From assembly GCA_947449315.1 (NCBI GenBank), contig CANFRC010000012.1, forward strand, positions 5,842 to 69,841: a DNA stretch of 64,000 nucleotides, given 5' to 3'. Under the pieces are notes generated by a model, which saw nothing but the letters and a program-made list of their open reading frames with translations, searched no databases and was not told the origin of the DNA. The position numbers and the translations under genes are program-made. The stretch comes from Bacteroidota bacterium. Lineage in GTDB: Bacteria > Bacteroidota > Bacteroidia > 2-12-FULL-35-15. This document shows positions 52,179-54,872 of the stretch, piece after piece (position 1 is the first letter of the stretch; each line of letters starts with the position of its first letter).

Positions 52179-52251
<73 letters not shown>

Positions 52252-52255
52252 CTAC

Positions 52256-52285
52256 AAGCCGATACATTATTGTGTCGGCTTTTTT
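52256..52285 (+). terminator. Terminator after the tRNA
   Basis: AAGCCGATAC-ATTATT-GTGTCGGCTTTTTT. Confidence 0.8.
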
Positions 52286-52343: not shown

Positions 52344-52351
52344 TACCTTTG
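52344..52351 (+). promoter_or_regulatory. -7 promoter element (TACCTTTG) for the rpe-CBS operon
   Basis: TAnnTTTG match 28 nt upstream of the TTG start. Confidence 0.6.
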
Positions 52352-52379
52352 CATCTGTTTAAAATTTAATAGAATTCCT

Positions 52380-53384
52380 TTGAAAATATCAGCATCAGTA
52401 TATTCCAACAAAACAAAAGGACTTGAATCGCTCGTTAAAGAGCTCGATGTCTTTAATGTGGATTTGTTTCATATCGATTGCAATGATGACCTTTCTGTTT
52501 TTGATGATATTGAGGCCATTCAAAAAATAAGTAATACCCCCATCGATCTTCATATTATTTCTTCAGATCCTGAAAAATTTTATCCGGGACTGTTGAAGCT
52601 GGATGTTGATTTTGTAACATTTCAATATGAGAATTTAAATTCTCCCTTGAAATTGCCTAAAGAGATAAAATCTAAATTCGGTTTGTCAATCGTTTCAGAA
52701 ACTCCCATTTCAGTTTTTGAAGAATACAAAGATGTGATGGATTTTATATTATTCATGACAACAACTCCAGGACAAAGCGGTGGAAGTTTCAATAAAGAAA
52801 ATTTTAAAAAGATAAGAGATTTCAAAAAAATCTATTCCGATAAAAAAATTCATGTTGATGGTGGCGTGAATGATGAAGTATCGTTTGTGTTGAGAAGTAT
52901 GGGCGTTTATTCTGTTGTTTCGGGTTCTTATTTAGTGAATGCGAACATCATTGGAAACGCTTTGCATAACCTAAGAAGCAACAGTATTGAATCGCATATT
53001 TCCATTCGCGATTTTATGATGACAAAAGAAGAGCTGCCCATATTGTCCGGAACAACAACTGAATTTTCTGACGTGTTGCAAAGCATCGAAAATTACAGCT
53101 TGGGTTTCACTATGTTGGTGAGTGAATCAGGAAAGTTGGAAGGCATCATAAGTAATGCGGATATTCGTAAAGGACTTATCAAAAGAATTCATAATCTGAA
53201 TAGCATTTCTGTTAAAGATGTTACGAACACACATCCAATAAAAATAAATAGTAAATTAACTGTTTCGGAAATGCTTGCGTTCGTTAAGAATTTACGAATC
53301 CCGATTTTGTATCTTCCAGTTGTAGATGAAAACAATATGCTGGAAGGAGCATTGATGTTTAATAATTTAATTAAAGGAGAATAA
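52380..53384 (+). CDS. Ribulose-phosphate 3-epimerase-like TIM barrel fused to a CBS domain pair
   Basis: KISAS, FHID, IDLH, MTTTPGQSGG, VDGGV, VSGSY (Rpe motifs), then DFMMTKEELPIL...GKLEGIISNADIRK...LPVVDENNMLEG (CBS pair). Confidence 0.85.
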   Translation: MKISASVYSNKTKGLESLVKELDVFNVDLFHIDCNDDLSVFDDIEAIQKISNTPIDLHIISSDPEKFYPGLLKLDVDFVTFQYENLNSPLKLPKEIKSKFGLSIVSETPISVFEEYKDVMDFILFMTTTPGQSGGSFNKENFKKIRDFKKIYSDKKIHVDGGVNDEVSFVLRSMGVYSVVSGSYLVNANIIGNALHNLRSNSIESHISIRDFMMTKEELPILSGTTTEFSDVLQSIENYSLGFTMLVSESGKLEGIISNADIRKGLIKRIHNLNSISVKDVTNTHPIKINSKLTVSEMLAFVKNLRIPILYLPVVDENNMLEGALMFNNLIKGE

Positions 53385-53385
53385 T

Positions 53386-54387
53386 ATGATCATTCATTTA
53401 AAACCAGAAGTAAACAAAGAGAAAGCTGAAGAACTCGGAAAAGAGCTTAGCGCAGTGGTATTGCCTAGAAATGGATTTTTCGCATTAATTACTCCTAATA
53501 AATTAAAAGCTGTAGAAGATAAATATAAGTCGTTAGTGACTGAAAGTTTTCCATTTGATGATGATATGCAATTGGCAAGTAAAAAATACATGTCAAGCGT
53601 TCGTGAGATAAAAATTGCTGATGGTTTATCCATCGGTGGAAACACTAACAATACGATCATGATTACAGGGCCTTGTTCTGTAGAATCGGAAGAGCAGATA
53701 GAGCAAGCTTCGGAATTGTGTGTTGAGTTAGGCGTAAAAGTTTTGCGTGCAGGAGCATTTAAACCACGTACCACACCGTATGCTTTTCAGGGAATGGGAT
53801 TGGAAGGGTTGAAGTTGCTGGACAAAATGCGAACAAAACATGGATTGAAGATCATTACTGAAATTCGTGATTCTACCCATGTTAGTGAAATTATTGAGTA
53901 CGCAGATATTTTGCAGATTGGAGCAAAAGCGATGTATGATCATGGTATTTTAAGAGCTTGCGGTAAATCTGGAAAGCCTGTTTTATTAAAAAGGGGATTT
54001 GGTGCCACGTTGCAAGAGTTTGTTCAAGCAGCAGAATTTATATTATCAGGCGGTAACGATCAGGTGATTTTATGTGAAAGAGGGATCAGAACGTTTGAAA
54101 CAAAAACACGTTTCACCTTAGATCTTTGCGGTGTAGCTTATTTAAAACAGCATACAAATTTACCAATCATATTAGATCCCAGTCACGCGATAGGTTTTGC
54201 GTACGGTGTCCCTGATCTTTCTAGGGCATGTGTGGCAATGGGCGTTGACGGACTATTAATTGAAACGCATCCGAACCCTGCTGTTGCAAAATCCGATGCA
54301 GCACAACAATTAAACTTTAAAGAATTCAGAGAATTGTATGCTAACTTAGTTCCTATAGCCAAAGCGGTAGGAAGAAAAATGGTTTAA
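53386..54387 (+). CDS. Type I-beta DAHP synthase / KdsA-family PEP aldolase with N-terminal ferredoxin-like domain
   Basis: GPCSVES, GAFKPRT, LLKRG, CERGIRTF, DPSH, ETHPNP...SDAAQ. Confidence 0.88.
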   Translation: MIIHLKPEVNKEKAEELGKELSAVVLPRNGFFALITPNKLKAVEDKYKSLVTESFPFDDDMQLASKKYMSSVREIKIADGLSIGGNTNNTIMITGPCSVESEEQIEQASELCVELGVKVLRAGAFKPRTTPYAFQGMGLEGLKLLDKMRTKHGLKIITEIRDSTHVSEIIEYADILQIGAKAMYDHGILRACGKSGKPVLLKRGFGATLQEFVQAAEFILSGGNDQVILCERGIRTFETKTRFTLDLCGVAYLKQHTNLPIILDPSHAIGFAYGVPDLSRACVAMGVDGLLIETHPNPAVAKSDAAQQLNFKEFRELYANLVPIAKAVGRKMV

Positions 54388-54395
54388 TCAGTATC

Positions 54396-54872
54396 ATGTC
54401 AGAAGCAAATAAAAATATAAAATTCTTAGTGCTGGATGTCGATGGTGTGATGACAGACGGTGGAATGTACTATTCTAATTCAGGTGATGAATTTAAAAAA
54501 TTCAACACAAAAGATGGAATGGGAATTAAATTGGCTATTAAACAAGGAATCAAAATTGGTTTTTTAAGCAACGGTAAAAATGATGCGTTGATTAATAACC
54601 GTGCGGCATTACTGGGTGTTGAGTTTGTGTATGTTGGCTTCGATAATAAAATGAAGATACTGAATGAGTGGATGACTCAGCTGAATTTAGAGTATAATCA
54701 TATTGCATATATCGGAGATGACATTAATGATGCGGAAGTAATTTCGCATGTTGGTTTATCTGCTTGTCCGGCAGATGCAATAAAAAGTATAAAAGAAAAA
54801 GTGAACATTATTCTTACTAGTAAAGGTGGAGAAGGGTGTGTGAGAGAGTTTATTGATAATTATCTTTTGTAA
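54396..54872 (+). CDS. KdsC/YrbI-family HAD phosphatase (3-deoxy-ulosonate phosphate phosphatase)
   Basis: DVDGVMTDG, KKFNTKDG, YIGDDIND, GGEGCVRE. Confidence 0.9.
   Translation: MSEANKNIKFLVLDVDGVMTDGGMYYSNSGDEFKKFNTKDGMGIKLAIKQGIKIGFLSNGKNDALINNRAALLGVEFVYVGFDNKMKILNEWMTQLNLEYNHIAYIGDDINDAEVISHVGLSACPADAIKSIKEKVNIILTSKGGEGCVREFIDNYLL

What the first reader, a model, noticed from the sequence alone, without database searches (positions are those of the whole stretch)
52380..54872. Kdo-pathway look-alike built from different parts: candidate pathway to a non-canonical 3-deoxy-ulosonic acid
Seen: three genes separated by 1 and 8 nt, behind their own promoter box, encoding Rpe-CBS, a DAHP-synthase-like aldolase and a KdsC-like phosphatase. 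Known: Kdo synthesis uses KdsD (SIS + CBS pair), KdsA (PEP aldolase) and KdsC, whereas the shikimate pathway never hydrolyses DAHP to the free sugar acid, so a phosphatase partner makes no sense for aromatic synthesis. Inference: the cassette follows the same logic (precursor, condensation, dephosphorylation) but swaps SIS for an epimerase and KdsA for a KPRT-type enzyme that should take a four-carbon aldose phosphate. Rpe inverts the carbon next to the carbonyl, and erythrose-4-P has the same carbonyl-to-phosphate spacing as ribulose-5-P. Epimerisation would therefore give D-threose-4-P, and condensation with PEP would give 3-deoxy-D-lyxo-heptulosonate-7-P. That is a seven-carbon Kdo analogue and a plausible precursor of Dha, whose biosynthesis I do not know to be established. 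Alternatives are an unusual route to Kdo or to free DAH. No CMP-transferase gene is in the window.
Basis: partly seen in the sequence, partly recalled or inferred. Interest (0 to 1): 0.88.

Follow-up and report, generated by a model that had tools for sequence, protein, structure and literature searches.

The report
Replacement Kdo pathway from borrowed enzymes
Three adjacent genes (an epimerase-like enzyme, an aldolase of the aromatic-pathway type and a phosphatase) seem to stand in for the standard enzymes that make Kdo, the essential outer-membrane sugar, in many bacteria that lack those enzymes.

Summary
52380-53384 encodes an Rpe-like barrel fused to a CBS pair, 53386-54387 a type I-beta DAH7P-synthase-like aldolase, and 54396-54872 a KdsC-family phosphatase, with gaps of 1 and 8 nt.

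The trio is a conserved module. The aldolase follows Rpe-CBS in 69 of 74 loci and the phosphatase follows in 59 of 65, in Bacteroidota and in Gammaproteobacteria.

The main result is phyletic. None of 64 Rpe-CBS genomes has a canonical KdsA, and none of 256 KdsA genomes has Rpe-CBS. KdsD is over cut-off in 1 of 50. This genome keeps a normal rpe, a DAHPS-chorismate-mutase fusion, a second KdsC, a true KdsB and WaaA. In gammaproteobacteria the trio lies beside kdsB-kdsC-lptCAB.

Best reading (0.6): a horizontally mobile substitute for KdsD and KdsA that makes Kdo.

The seven-carbon analogue is not excluded (about 0.15). The aldolase keeps the DAH7PS substrate-binding residues. In one KdsA-bearing genome and nine trio genomes it is the only candidate DAH7P synthase found, so it may act on more than one substrate.

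No description was found in five literature searches.

The parts
52348..52375 (+). Promoter-like site (TTTGCA, 16 nt, TAGAAT) between the tRNA-Met terminator and the first gene. Weak evidence only.
   Evidence: scores it 9 of 12, and the number of such sites in the region is no higher than in shuffles. Sequence read. A terminator-like hairpin at 52256-52281 precedes it.
52380..53384 (+). Rpe-CBS gene (334 aa): a proposed new arabinose-5-phosphate-forming enzyme that takes the place of KdsD.
   Evidence: A large family of constant length, about 335 aa. AlphaFold model with pLDDT 87.4. Found only in genomes that lack KdsA and KdsD.
52383..52934 (+). Rpe-like (beta/alpha)8 barrel, residues 2-185. 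H31, D33, H58 and D160 align with the metal and catalytic residues of ribulose-phosphate 3-epimerases.
   Evidence: PF00834 at 95.6 bits. Alignments to RPE structures 7b1w, 1rpx and 1tqj. These four residues are invariant down to about 25% identity. Foldseek TM 0.76-0.81 to RPE and to AlsE 3ct7.
52992..53381 (+). CBS pair of the KdsD/KpsF type, residues about 205-334.
   Evidence: Best NCBIfam CBS match is kpsF (6.7e-13) and then KdsD. Best PDB matches are the CBS pairs of arabinose-5-phosphate isomerases: 4o9k at 3.3e-8 and 3fna at 2.1e-5. KpsF queries hit this stretch as their best match in the whole genome. Distant family members carry ITDGDIRR.
53386..54387 (+). Trio-type aldolase (333 aa), derived from type I-beta DAH7P synthase. 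Proposed Kdo-8-P synthase that takes the place of KdsA, and possibly still a DAH7P synthase.
   Evidence: It forms its own clade of 72 sequences (support 0.86) beside ordinary DAH7PS I-beta. It is 58-94% identical within the clade and at most 47% identical outside it. It is the best and only KdsA-like match in KdsA-less genomes.
53386..53610 (+). N-terminal extension of the aldolase, about 75 aa, of the kind that is regulatory in PRK08673-type DAH7P synthases.
   Evidence: NF006421 aligns from residue 1, while the Pfam barrel starts at residue 83. The extension is present in all 70 full-length clade members, which are 331-333 aa as a rule. Its ligand is unknown.
54396..54872 (+). KdsC-family HAD phosphatase (158 aa). 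Proposed Kdo-8-P phosphatase of the module.
   Evidence: TIGR01670 at 149.5 against 106.95. Equally near KDN-9-P phosphatase (159.7, below its cut-off of 180). It follows the aldolase in 59 of 65 loci. It is the only KdsC-family gene found in 18 of 50 trio genomes.

Best explanation
The three genes form a self-contained, horizontally transferred module. It replaces the first two enzymes of the Kdo pathway (KdsD and KdsA) and brings its own KdsC-type phosphatase.

Proposed steps:
1. The Rpe-like barrel, fused to a KdsD-type CBS pair, makes D-arabinose-5-phosphate from a pentose phosphate. The likely chemistry is a metal-bound 1,2-enediolate, giving either 2-epimerisation of ribose-5-P or isomerisation of ribulose-5-P.
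2. The DAH7P-synthase-derived aldolase condenses arabinose-5-P with PEP to give Kdo-8-P.
3. The phosphatase releases Kdo, which the host's ordinary KdsB and WaaA put on lipid A.

Shown: the conservation of the module, its strict complementarity with KdsA/KdsD, and its LPS gene neighbourhood in gammaproteobacteria.

Inferred: the substrates, the chemistry of each step, and that the product is Kdo itself.

The aldolase probably still accepts erythrose-4-P as well, because in some genomes it is the only candidate DAH7P synthase found. My confidence that the module supplies the KdsB/WaaA substrate is about 0.85. My confidence that the product is authentic Kdo made by these steps is about 0.6.
For: 1. 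Own genome (2.61 Mb, 99.8% complete).
- No KdsA: the best TIGR01362 match is the window aldolase at 122 bits against a cut-off of 314.
- tblastn with 3 KdsA proteins hits only the window aldolase and the DAHPS-CM fusion.
- No KpsF/KdsD: only CBS fragments match. The one SIS-only protein is GmhA (295 against 265).
- KdsB is a true equivalog (TIGR00466 230.8 against 155.2), and WaaA is present.

2. Phyletic complementarity.
- KdsA over cut-off in 0 of 50 genomes that carry Rpe-CBS. KpsF over cut-off in 1 of 50.
- Phylum sample of 301 genomes at least 90% complete: KdsA in 219 and Rpe-CBS in 4.
- Of the 75 same-class genomes, 71 have a KdsA-level match (E at most 3e-101) and no Rpe-CBS, 4 have Rpe-CBS and no KdsA, and none has both or neither.
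- Gammaproteobacterial order of 57 genomes: 37 with KdsA only, 19 with Rpe-CBS only, 0 with both, 1 with neither.
- The six families of the phylum sample with no WaaA match (0 of 64 genomes) have no Rpe-CBS either; two of them (53 genomes) have no KdsA-model match at all, and in the other four the listed genomes show only matches at the level of an ordinary DAH7P synthase.

3. Synteny. The aldolase lies directly after Rpe-CBS in 69 of 74 loci, and the phosphatase comes next in 59 of 65.

4. Context in 12 gammaproteobacterial loci: KdsB in 10, LptB in 11, LptC in 9, LptA in 8 and a YrbG-like exchanger in 7. This is the classical kdsD-kdsC-lptCAB neighbourhood without kdsD (gene order in E. coli recalled).

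5. The CBS pair is specifically of the KdsD type.

6. The Rpe metal and catalytic residues are invariant across the family.

7. Plug compatibility.
- Trio proteins are 52-69% identical between the two phyla, whereas KdsB is about 40% identical.
- The window genome's KdsB is closest to that of a KdsA-type genome: 61% against 57% and 54%.
- There are 0 fixed differences between 13 trio-type and 3 KdsA-type KdsB sequences.

8. In genome G168 a trio-type aldolase, with all 24 signature positions identical, sits directly downstream of canonical kdsA-kdsD.

9. The DAHPS-CM fusion is the characterised aromatic-pathway enzyme in the Bacteroidota species Prevotella nigrescens (PMC8408635, abstract seen). 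The window aldolase is therefore not needed for aromatic synthesis in this genome.
Against: - By sequence the aldolase is a DAH7P synthase. NF006421 is over its cut-off. It scores 275 bits against the A. pernix enzyme and about 100 bits against Kdo8P synthases.
- KPRT and the metal ligands are kept in 71 of 71 clade members, and no KdsA-type motif is present. The residues listed as E4P-binding in PMC6362186 (passages read) are all retained.
- G168, rated 100% complete, has KdsA, KdsD and a trio-type aldolase. It has no other PF00793 member and no type II enzyme, yet it has chorismate synthase. There the aldolase most simply acts as the DAH7P synthase.
- In 10 of the 38 non-gammaproteobacterial trio genomes the trio aldolase is the only PF00793 member, and 9 of those 10 have chorismate synthase. 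The completeness of these MAGs was not given.
- No Rpe-family enzyme is known to me (recalled) to make an aldose phosphate.
- A second, canonical KdsC is kept in 32 of 50 trio genomes. This makes the module's own phosphatase look redundant and leaves room for a different substrate.
- One Rpe-CBS genome (G148) showed no WaaA match.
- Nothing here is biochemical, and no LPS sugar analysis of a carrier was found.
Confidence: 0.6

Rival explanations
1. Rpe-CBS epimerises erythrose-4-P to D-threose-4-P. The aldolase condenses it with PEP to 3-deoxy-D-lyxo-heptulosonate-7-P, and the phosphatase frees the seven-carbon Kdo analogue. In the light of the new data, this analogue would then replace Kdo as the substrate of KdsB and WaaA.
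For: - The aldolase keeps KPRT and all residues listed as E4P-binding.
- It seems to be the only DAH7P synthase in G168 and in about 9 trio genomes, so it very likely takes four-carbon aldose phosphates.
- The carbonyl-to-phosphate spacing of erythrose-4-P equals that of ribulose-5-P, so the Rpe fold would need little change (inference).
- The module's phosphatase is additional to a canonical KdsC in 32 of 50 genomes and scores as near to KDN-9-P phosphatase as to KdsC. It may therefore have a different substrate.
- DAH7P synthases accept D-threose-4-P in vitro (recalled, not checked; a search for 'threose 4-phosphate' found 0 papers).
Against: - It requires that KdsB, WaaA and later core enzymes of many unrelated recipients in two phyla accept the analogue. 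Yet KdsB shows no trio-specific change and is vertically inherited, and it passes the kdsB equivalog cut-off.
- Canonical KdsC is retained.
- The CBS pair is of the KdsD type.
- In G168 the aldolase follows a true arabinose-5-P isomerase gene.
- Rpe-CBS never co-occurs with KdsA (0 of 64 and 0 of 256). This fits functional equivalence better than an extra sugar.
- No LPS with such a sugar in place of Kdo is known to me (recalled).
Confidence: 0.15
2. The aldolase is the Kdo-8-P synthase of these genomes, but Rpe-CBS is not the source of arabinose-5-P. It could be a regulator or an ordinary or other sugar-phosphate epimerase, with arabinose-5-P coming from a side activity of another isomerase.
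For: - No Rpe-family member is known to make an aldose phosphate (recalled).
- In G168 the same type of aldolase works beside a normal KdsD without Rpe-CBS.
- In 5 of 74 loci Rpe-CBS is not followed by the aldolase.
Against: - KpsF/KdsD is missing in 49 of 50 Rpe-CBS genomes, and Rpe-CBS occurs only where KdsD and KdsA are missing.
- It carries the KdsD-type CBS pair and occupies the position just upstream of the aldolase that kdsD holds in G168.
- Its catalytic residues are invariant, which argues for an active enzyme.
- A housekeeping rpe exists as well.
Confidence: 0.1
3. An ordinary second DAH7P synthase for aromatic or secondary metabolism that merely has two unrelated neighbours. On this view the absence of KdsA and KdsD has another cause.
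For: - NCBIfam names it 3-deoxy-7-phosphoheptulonate synthase, over the cut-off.
- It has the N-terminal extension typical of feedback-regulated enzymes.
- It has a sole-DAH7PS role in some genomes.
Against: - The three-gene order is conserved across two phyla.
- It shows perfect complementarity with KdsA in 64 plus 256 genomes.
- It neighbours kdsB-kdsC-lptCAB or kdsA-kdsD.
- A phosphatase of the KdsC family has no role in the shikimate pathway.
- KdsB and WaaA are present without any other source of their substrate.
Confidence: 0.05

Closest known systems
Canonical Kdo pathway KdsD-KdsA-KdsC-KdsB (E. coli type)
   Same: - The logic is the same: make an aldose phosphate, condense it with PEP, dephosphorylate.
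- The phosphatase family is the same (TIGR01670).
- The first enzyme has the same kind of CBS pair.
- In gammaproteobacteria the neighbourhood is the same, with kdsB, kdsC and lptCAB.
- The module depends on the ordinary KdsB and WaaA.
   Different: - The SIS catalytic domain of KdsD is replaced by an Rpe-like barrel.
- KdsA is replaced by a member of the DAH7P synthase I-beta branch that has KPRT, an N-terminal extension and no KdsA motif.
- Canonical KdsA is absent from all 64 carrier genomes and canonical KpsF/KdsD from 50 of the 51 searched for it.
Type I-beta DAH7P synthases with an N-terminal regulatory domain (PRK08673 type; structures 1RZM, 1VS1, 1ZCO)
   Same: - NF006421 is over its cut-off.
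- It scores 240-275 bits against these structures.
- The metal ligands, KPRT and most PEP ligands are kept.
- It probably still has DAH7P synthase activity.
   Different: - It forms a separate clade.
- Changes are fixed in 71 of 71 members: GARNMQN to GAKAMYD, TRNTLD to TRFTLD, and HPxGRR to HA.G..YG, among others. The PEP-binding Arg that PMC6362186 calls completely conserved is Lys here.
- Its gene partners are Kdo-pathway genes, and its phyletic pattern complements KdsA.
- Substrate ambiguity of the P. furiosus enzyme towards arabinose-5-P is recalled, not checked.
Ribulose-phosphate 3-epimerase (Rpe) and D-allulose-6-phosphate 3-epimerase (AlsE)
   Same: - Same fold (Foldseek TM 0.76-0.81).
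- The His/Asp/His/Asp positions and the phosphate-binding glycines are the same.
   Different: - About 25% identity, far below the equivalog cut-offs.
- The beta1-alpha1 loop is shorter by 6 residues.
- Two of the three methionines beside the active site are replaced (the role of these Met residues is recalled; the positions are).
- It is always fused to a CBS pair.
- A true rpe is present elsewhere in the genome.
KdsC / KDN-9-phosphate phosphatase family (HAD type C0)
   Same: It passes the YrbI subfamily cut-off and has the DVDG motif at residues 14-17.
   Different: - It is below both equivalog cut-offs: KdsC 149.9 against 208, and KDN-9-P phosphatase 159.7 against 180.
- A canonical KdsC is often present as well.
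- In 38 of 59 loci the phosphatase domain begins at least 60 nt after the aldolase gene; in those inspected the gene encodes a longer protein with an N-terminal helix-turn-helix-like extension of about 75 aa, which the window copy lacks.

Membership tests
Ribulose-phosphate 3-epimerase (Rpe) | Sequence passes the family models | tested here: inconclusive
   Pfam PF00834 is passed (95.6 against 21.1). NCBIfam rpe equivalog TIGR01163 is not (85.6 against 212.6), and neither is subfamily NF004076 (103.7 against 165).
Ribulose-phosphate 3-epimerase (Rpe) | Metal-binding and catalytic His, Asp, His, Asp, and the (beta/alpha)8 fold | tested here: met
   H31, D33, H58 and D160 align with the corresponding residues of RPE structures. 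They are invariant in the family. The fold is confirmed on the model.
Ribulose-phosphate 3-epimerase (Rpe) | Interconverts ribulose-5-P and xylulose-5-P as the cell's pentose-phosphate-pathway enzyme | not testable with these tools
   A canonical rpe (279 against 212.6) exists on C9, so this role is already filled. The activity itself needs an assay.
KdsD / KpsF arabinose-5-phosphate isomerase | SIS catalytic domain | tested here: not met
   The kpsF model matches only its positions 157-267, the CBS part. KpsF queries align only over their residues about 196-330.
KdsD / KpsF arabinose-5-phosphate isomerase | C-terminal CBS pair of the KdsD kind | tested here: met
   The best PDB matches by sequence and by fold are isomerase CBS pairs 4o9k, 3fna and 3k2v. 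Distant family members carry ITDGDIRR.
KdsD / KpsF arabinose-5-phosphate isomerase | Supplies arabinose-5-P for Kdo. Expected to be present wherever Kdo is made. | tested here: inconclusive
   The phyletic pattern fits a replacement: KpsF in 1 of 50 carrier genomes, and Rpe-CBS only where KdsA is missing. The activity was not measured.
DAH7P synthase type I-beta | Sequence model, KPRT motif and Cys/His/Glu/Asp metal site | tested here: met
   NF006421 at 365.8 against 335. K126-P-R-T129, C97, H267, E293 and D304 are kept in 71 of 71.
DAH7P synthase type I-beta | The GAR arginine that binds the phosphate of PEP, called completely conserved in PMC6362186 | tested here: not met
   Lys in 71 of 71 clade members, against Arg in 9 of 9 comparison DAH7P synthases.
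DAH7P synthase type I-beta | [quoted passage not shown] | tested here: inconclusive
   It is not required in this genome, which has the DAHPS-CM fusion. It is the only candidate in G168 and in 9 to 10 trio genomes that have chorismate synthase.
Kdo-8-P synthase (KdsA) | Sequence model and KdsA-type substrate loop | tested here: not met
   TIGR01362 at 122.8 against 314. The loop reads KPRT as in DAH7PS. It is 29-32% identical to KdsA.
Kdo-8-P synthase (KdsA) | Functional role: the only source of the KdsB/WaaA substrate | tested here: inconclusive
   Complementary distribution in 64 and 256 genomes, plus Kdo/LPS gene context. No assay was done.
KdsC (Kdo-8-P phosphatase, YrbI subfamily) | Subfamily model and HAD nucleophile motif | tested here: met
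   TIGR01670 at 149.5 against 106.95. DVDG at residues 14-17.
KdsC (Kdo-8-P phosphatase, YrbI subfamily) | Equivalog-level match, or specificity for Kdo-8-P | tested here: not met
   NF007019 at 149.9 against 208. Specificity is not testable here.

The most novel reading that the evidence does not exclude
In hundreds of species of Bacteroidota and Gammaproteobacteria the inner-core sugar of LPS is not Kdo but its seven-carbon analogue, 3-deoxy-D-lyxo-heptulosonate. It would be made from erythrose-4-P through D-threose-4-P, by an Rpe-derived 2-epimerase and a single aldolase that also feeds the shikimate pathway. Old colour tests for Kdo may not have told the two apart (recalled).
Probability: 0.15. 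Interest if true: 0.95.

Novelty: new variant of a known kind. Interest (0 to 1): 0.8.

Why it matters
- Kdo synthesis is treated as a near-universal, essential trait of bacteria with LPS, and KdsA and KdsD are used as markers and as drug targets. Here at least 64 genomes from two phyla lack KdsA (and, of the 51 searched for it, 50 lack KdsD), while keeping KdsB and WaaA in those where these were looked for (WaaA in 3 of the 4 searched). About 460 matching stretches were found among species-representative genomes.
- Automatic annotation calls the replacement genes 'CBS domain-containing protein' and 'DAHP synthase'. Metabolic reconstructions of these mostly uncultured organisms would therefore wrongly report a broken LPS pathway.
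- If the reading is right, it adds a new reaction to the Rpe fold: making an aldose phosphate.
- It would give a natural example of a DAH7P synthase taken over for Kdo-8-P synthesis, and perhaps serving both pathways at once. That bears on the long-standing idea of an ancestral aldolase that acted on more than one substrate.
- It is also a clear case of pathway steps displaced by a mobile three-gene module.
- Everything is directly testable with three small soluble proteins and existing E. coli K-12 mutants.

Tried and rejected
- **Other arabinose-5-P isomerase candidates in this genome.** A single-SIS-domain isomerase was considered. The only SIS-only protein (C12, just upstream of the window) is GmhA, over its equivalog cut-off. 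The 489-aa CBS protein on C7 is IMP dehydrogenase.
- **The second CTP_transf_3 gene** lies beside PseC, so it belongs to a pseudaminic-acid-type cluster and not to this pathway.
- **KdsA-less genomes of other classes in the phylum sample.** They turned out to have only ordinary DAH7P synthases, 46-50% identical, and no WaaA. They are Kdo-less lineages, not further carriers.
- **Metagenome scan with distant family members.** This was meant to find hybrid operons. It mostly pulled in ordinary KdsD genes through the shared CBS motif. Only 1 of 80 loci (L119) was a full-length relative, and it was another standard trio.
- **Literature.** Five searches found no description of this module or of KdsA-less LPS producers. 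'Threose 4-phosphate' gave 0 papers. Only open-access text is searched. Supplements were not consulted and are unlikely to matter here.
- **Residue-level inference of aldolase specificity.** The open literature read (PMC6362186, passages) lists only R, T of KPRT and the metal Asp as E4P ligands, and all three are kept. The roles of the clade-specific substitutions remain unknown.
- **Not attempted:** ligand docking, complex prediction, expression data, and identifying cultured carriers.
- **Limit on counts.** One search lists at most 150 matches. 'KdsA-level' for the 71 same-class genomes therefore rests on their E-values (at most 3e-101), not on printed bit scores for each.

Full report
**What is in the window.**
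One search confirms three + strand ORFs at 52380-53384 (334 aa, TTG start), 53386-54387 (333 aa) and 54396-54872 (158 aa), separated by 1 and 8 nt. Upstream lie era on the other strand, tRNA-Met (52179-52252) and a terminator-like hairpin (52256-52281). Downstream, der starts 12 nt after the third gene. A TTTGCA/TAGAAT pair at 52348-52375 could be a promoter, but such matches are no more frequent here than in shuffled sequence.

Pfam and NCBIfam give:
- an Rpe-like barrel plus a CBS pair, which passes Pfam but lies far below the rpe equivalog cut-off;
- a type I-beta DAH7P-synthase-like protein, with NF006421 at 365.8 against 335 and the Kdo-8-P synthase model at only 122.8 against 314;
- a KdsC/YrbI-subfamily phosphatase at 149.5 against 106.95.

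**What the rest of the genome holds.**
The assembly is 2.61 Mb and 99.8% complete. It has:
- a canonical rpe on C9 (279 against 212.6);
- a second PF00793 protein on C8, a DAHPS fused to chorismate mutase. This is the form characterised as the aromatic-pathway enzyme in Prevotella nigrescens (PMC8408635, abstract seen);
- a second KdsC on C1;
- a true KdsB on C3 (TIGR00466 230.8 against 155.2);
- WaaA on C5;
- chorismate synthase.

It has no KdsA. The best match to the KdsA model is the window aldolase itself. Three KdsA proteins from related genomes find only that gene and the DAHPS-CM fusion by tblastn.

It has no KpsF/KdsD. Only CBS fragments match. Five KpsF/KdsD-length proteins, three of them verified as KpsF, hit nothing with their SIS domains. 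For four of the five the best hit in the genome is the CBS pair of the window's Rpe-CBS. The only SIS-only protein is GmhA.

So the genome can activate and transfer Kdo but has no recognisable way to make it, other than these three genes.

**The trio is a conserved module.**
- The Rpe-CBS architecture is common. A word-indexed search found 2802 proteins at E at most 1e-3, and the best 120 all carry both domains.
- An exhaustive search of 50% representatives found 109 clusters at E at most 1e-30. Full-length members of about 335 aa reach down to about 25% identity.
- Among species-representative genomes, 460 stretches encode a relative.
- The 80 best loci come from many Bacteroidota lineages and from 12 Gammaproteobacteria with titles such as Thioalkalispiraceae, Ectothiorhodospiraceae and Halorhodospira.
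- In 69 of the 74 loci with enough downstream DNA, the aldolase follows Rpe-CBS directly (median gap 3 nt). In 59 of 65 the KdsC-like gene comes next.
- The exceptions are three loci where the phosphatase follows Rpe-CBS directly and two where Rpe-CBS stands alone. In the three of these genomes that were searched, the aldolase lies elsewhere.

**Complementarity with KdsA and KdsD.**
- In 50 of 50 carrier genomes no KdsA reaches the model's cut-off. The best matches, 104-136 bits, are the trio aldolases. KpsF is over its cut-off in 1 of 50, on a small contig of a MAG.
- In a sample of 301 genomes of the phylum, all at least 90% complete, KdsA is over cut-off in 219, WaaA is present in 222 and Rpe-CBS in 4.
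- Among the 75 genomes of the window's class, 71 have a KdsA-level match and no Rpe-CBS. Four, the window's genome included, have Rpe-CBS and no KdsA. None has both or neither.
- The six families with no WaaA match (0 of 64 genomes) have no Rpe-CBS either. Two of them (53 genomes) have no match to the KdsA model at all. In the other four the listed genomes show only matches of about 1e-33 to 1e-37, which in the four genomes checked are ordinary DAH7P synthases. They appear to be Kdo-less lineages.
- The pattern repeats independently in the gammaproteobacterial order around one carrier. Of 57 genomes, 37 have KdsA only, 19 have Rpe-CBS only, none has both and one has neither. Ten of those 19 were already known to me. 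The sample itself was everything held for that order at 85% completeness or more.
- Altogether KdsA was over cut-off in 0 of 64 Rpe-CBS genomes, and Rpe-CBS was found in 0 of 256 KdsA genomes.

**Gene context.**
- In the gammaproteobacterial loci the trio is divergently adjacent to kdsB, a canonical kdsC, lptC, lptA and lptB. A YrbG-like exchanger often lies on the other side.
- Across the 12 loci, KdsB occurs in 10, LptB in 11, LptC in 9, LptA in 8 and the exchanger in 7.
- That is the textbook kdsD-kdsC-lptCAB neighbourhood (recalled for E. coli) with kdsD itself missing.
- In Bacteroidota nothing beyond the trio is conserved around it, as expected of a mobile unit.

**The first enzyme.**
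- The AlphaFold model (pLDDT 87.4) is an Rpe-type barrel plus a CBS pair. Foldseek puts the barrel on ribulose-phosphate 3-epimerases and AlsE (TM 0.76-0.81, about 25% identity). It puts the CBS pair first on the CBS pairs of arabinose-5-phosphate isomerases 4o9k, 3k2v and 3fna.
- Sequence searches agree. 4o9k (3.3e-8) and 3fna (2.1e-5) lead, ahead of generic CBS proteins.
- I recall that 4o9k holds CMP-Kdo. Its title is cut off in the output, so this is unverified.
- H31, D33, H58 and D160 align with the metal and catalytic residues of Rpe and are invariant even in members only 25-30% identical. Those distant members also carry an ITDGDIRR motif in the CBS part.
- The simplest history is a KdsD whose SIS domain was exchanged for an Rpe-like barrel while the regulatory CBS pair was kept.
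- The chemistry is inferred. An Rpe-type two-base, metal-assisted enediolate mechanism applied to C1-C2 of a pentose phosphate would turn ribose-5-P or ribulose-5-P into arabinose-5-P. The required carbonyl-to-phosphate distance equals that handled by AlsE.

**The aldolase.**
- It is 57% and 52% identical to the A. pernix and P. furiosus DAH7P synthases (275 and 251 bits), and scores about 100 bits against Kdo-8-P synthases.
- The 70 full-length copies next to Rpe-CBS are 58-94% identical to it. Ordinary DAH7P synthases reach at most 47%, the CM fusions about 35% and KdsA 29-32%.
- They form one clade (support 0.86) beside ordinary I-beta enzymes, with KdsA as outgroup and the gammaproteobacterial copies nested among Bacteroidota ones.
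- The clade keeps the metal ligands, KPRT and most PEP ligands. It has substitutions fixed in 71 of 71: R181K, Q184Y and N185D (GARNMQN to GAKAMYD), N243F, S248C and H258N. The two arginines after the metal histidine are lost (HAIGFAYG), among other changes.
- Column 184 is the position of an arginine in KdsA.
- The residues that PMC6362186 lists as E4P ligands are all kept (passages read). The sequence therefore does not say that the enzyme has given up erythrose-4-P.

**Results that complicate the picture.**
- One KdsA-bearing genome of the window's class, G168 (rated 100% complete), has a trio-type aldolase that is 57% identical, has all 24 signature positions and lies inside the clade.
- That aldolase sits immediately after canonical kdsA and kdsD on the same strand, in the place where Rpe-CBS would otherwise be. 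This ties the aldolase to a true arabinose-5-P isomerase and supports arabinose-5-P as a substrate.
- G168 has no other PF00793 member and no type II enzyme, although its relatives G124 and G280 have the CM fusion and G168 has chorismate synthase. There the aldolase is the only visible DAH7P synthase.
- Likewise, in 10 of the 38 non-gammaproteobacterial carrier genomes it is the only PF00793 member, and 9 of those 10 have chorismate synthase. These are MAGs of untold completeness.
- Eleven of the 12 gammaproteobacterial carriers have a separate second match; in 10 it is complete and high-scoring, in one it is cut at a contig end.
- The most economical reading is an aldolase that takes both erythrose-4-P and arabinose-5-P. 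I recall this being shown in vitro for the P. furiosus enzyme.

**Why I still favour Kdo.**
- The module has moved between phyla. Its proteins are 52-69% identical between Bacteroidota and Gammaproteobacteria, whereas KdsB is about 40% identical and follows the host.
- The window genome's KdsB is closest to that of a KdsA-type genome.
- There is no position fixed differently between 13 trio-type and 3 KdsA-type KdsB sequences. With so few KdsA-type sequences this is a weak test.
- A module that plugs into unchanged KdsB, WaaA and core enzymes of unrelated hosts most simply makes the same sugar.
- Canonical KdsC is kept in 32 of 50 carriers, while in 18 the module's phosphatase is the only one found.
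- The CBS pair is of the KdsD kind.
- Rpe-CBS is never found together with KdsA. This suggests redundancy rather than a second product.
- None of this is biochemical proof. I put the seven-carbon analogue at about 0.15.

**Known or new.**
Five full-text searches found no paper describing an Rpe-CBS enzyme in Kdo synthesis, a DAH7PS-type Kdo-8-P synthase, or LPS producers without kdsA/kdsD. I rate it a new variant of a known pathway: the same logic and the same downstream enzymes, with two different catalysts. It is widespread and directly testable.

Noticed in passing
L061:7003-7689, L028:7009-7689 and others: In 38 of the 59 loci with a KdsC-like gene, the phosphatase domain begins at least 60 nt after the aldolase gene. 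In the loci inspected the gene encodes a 211-247-aa protein with an N-terminal extension of about 75 aa that looks like an XRE/HipB-type helix-turn-helix. The NCBIfam hits are weak. The window copy (158 aa) lacks the extension. A DNA-binding domain fused to a sugar-phosphate phosphatase would be unusual.
   Followed up: partly
L199:3834-6601 (genome G168, contig C6): A hybrid operon: canonical kdsA, canonical kdsD, then a trio-type aldolase. The genome has no Rpe-CBS, no DAHPS-CM fusion and no type II DAH7P synthase, but it has chorismate synthase. It is either an intermediate stage in the replacement, or a case where the aldolase serves the shikimate pathway.
   Followed up: yes
phylum sample, families f18, f23, f26, f27, f28, f30 (64 genomes): These families have no WaaA match and no Rpe-CBS. 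Two of them have no match to the KdsA model at all, and the listed genomes of the other four have only DAH7PS-level matches. They seem to be lineages of the phylum without Kdo.
   Followed up: partly
genome G148: It carries Rpe-CBS and the trio aldolase, but no PF04413 (WaaA) match at E at most 1e-10, although it is rated 100% complete.
   Followed up: no
genome G026, contig C141:697-2057: A gammaproteobacterial MAG with the trio also has a canonical KpsF-KdsC pair on a small contig, but no KdsA. This is either contamination or a natural KdsD-plus-trio state.
   Followed up: no
window 52179-52281: tRNA-Met (CAT) is followed at once by an 11-bp terminator-like hairpin and a T run.
   Followed up: no
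L016 (own genome, contig C7:50421-54020): The second CTP_transf_3 gene sits beside a PseC-type aminotransferase (460.7 against 423.5). This points to a pseudaminic-acid-type nonulosonate cluster in the same genome.
   Followed up: no
genomes G012, G022, G023, G028, G038, G039, G042: Some carriers have, besides the trio aldolase, a second full-length I-beta DAH7P-synthase-like gene (219-247 bits to PF00793, 339-379 aa) and sometimes the CM fusion as well. Which of these is the aromatic-pathway enzyme was not sorted out.
   Followed up: no
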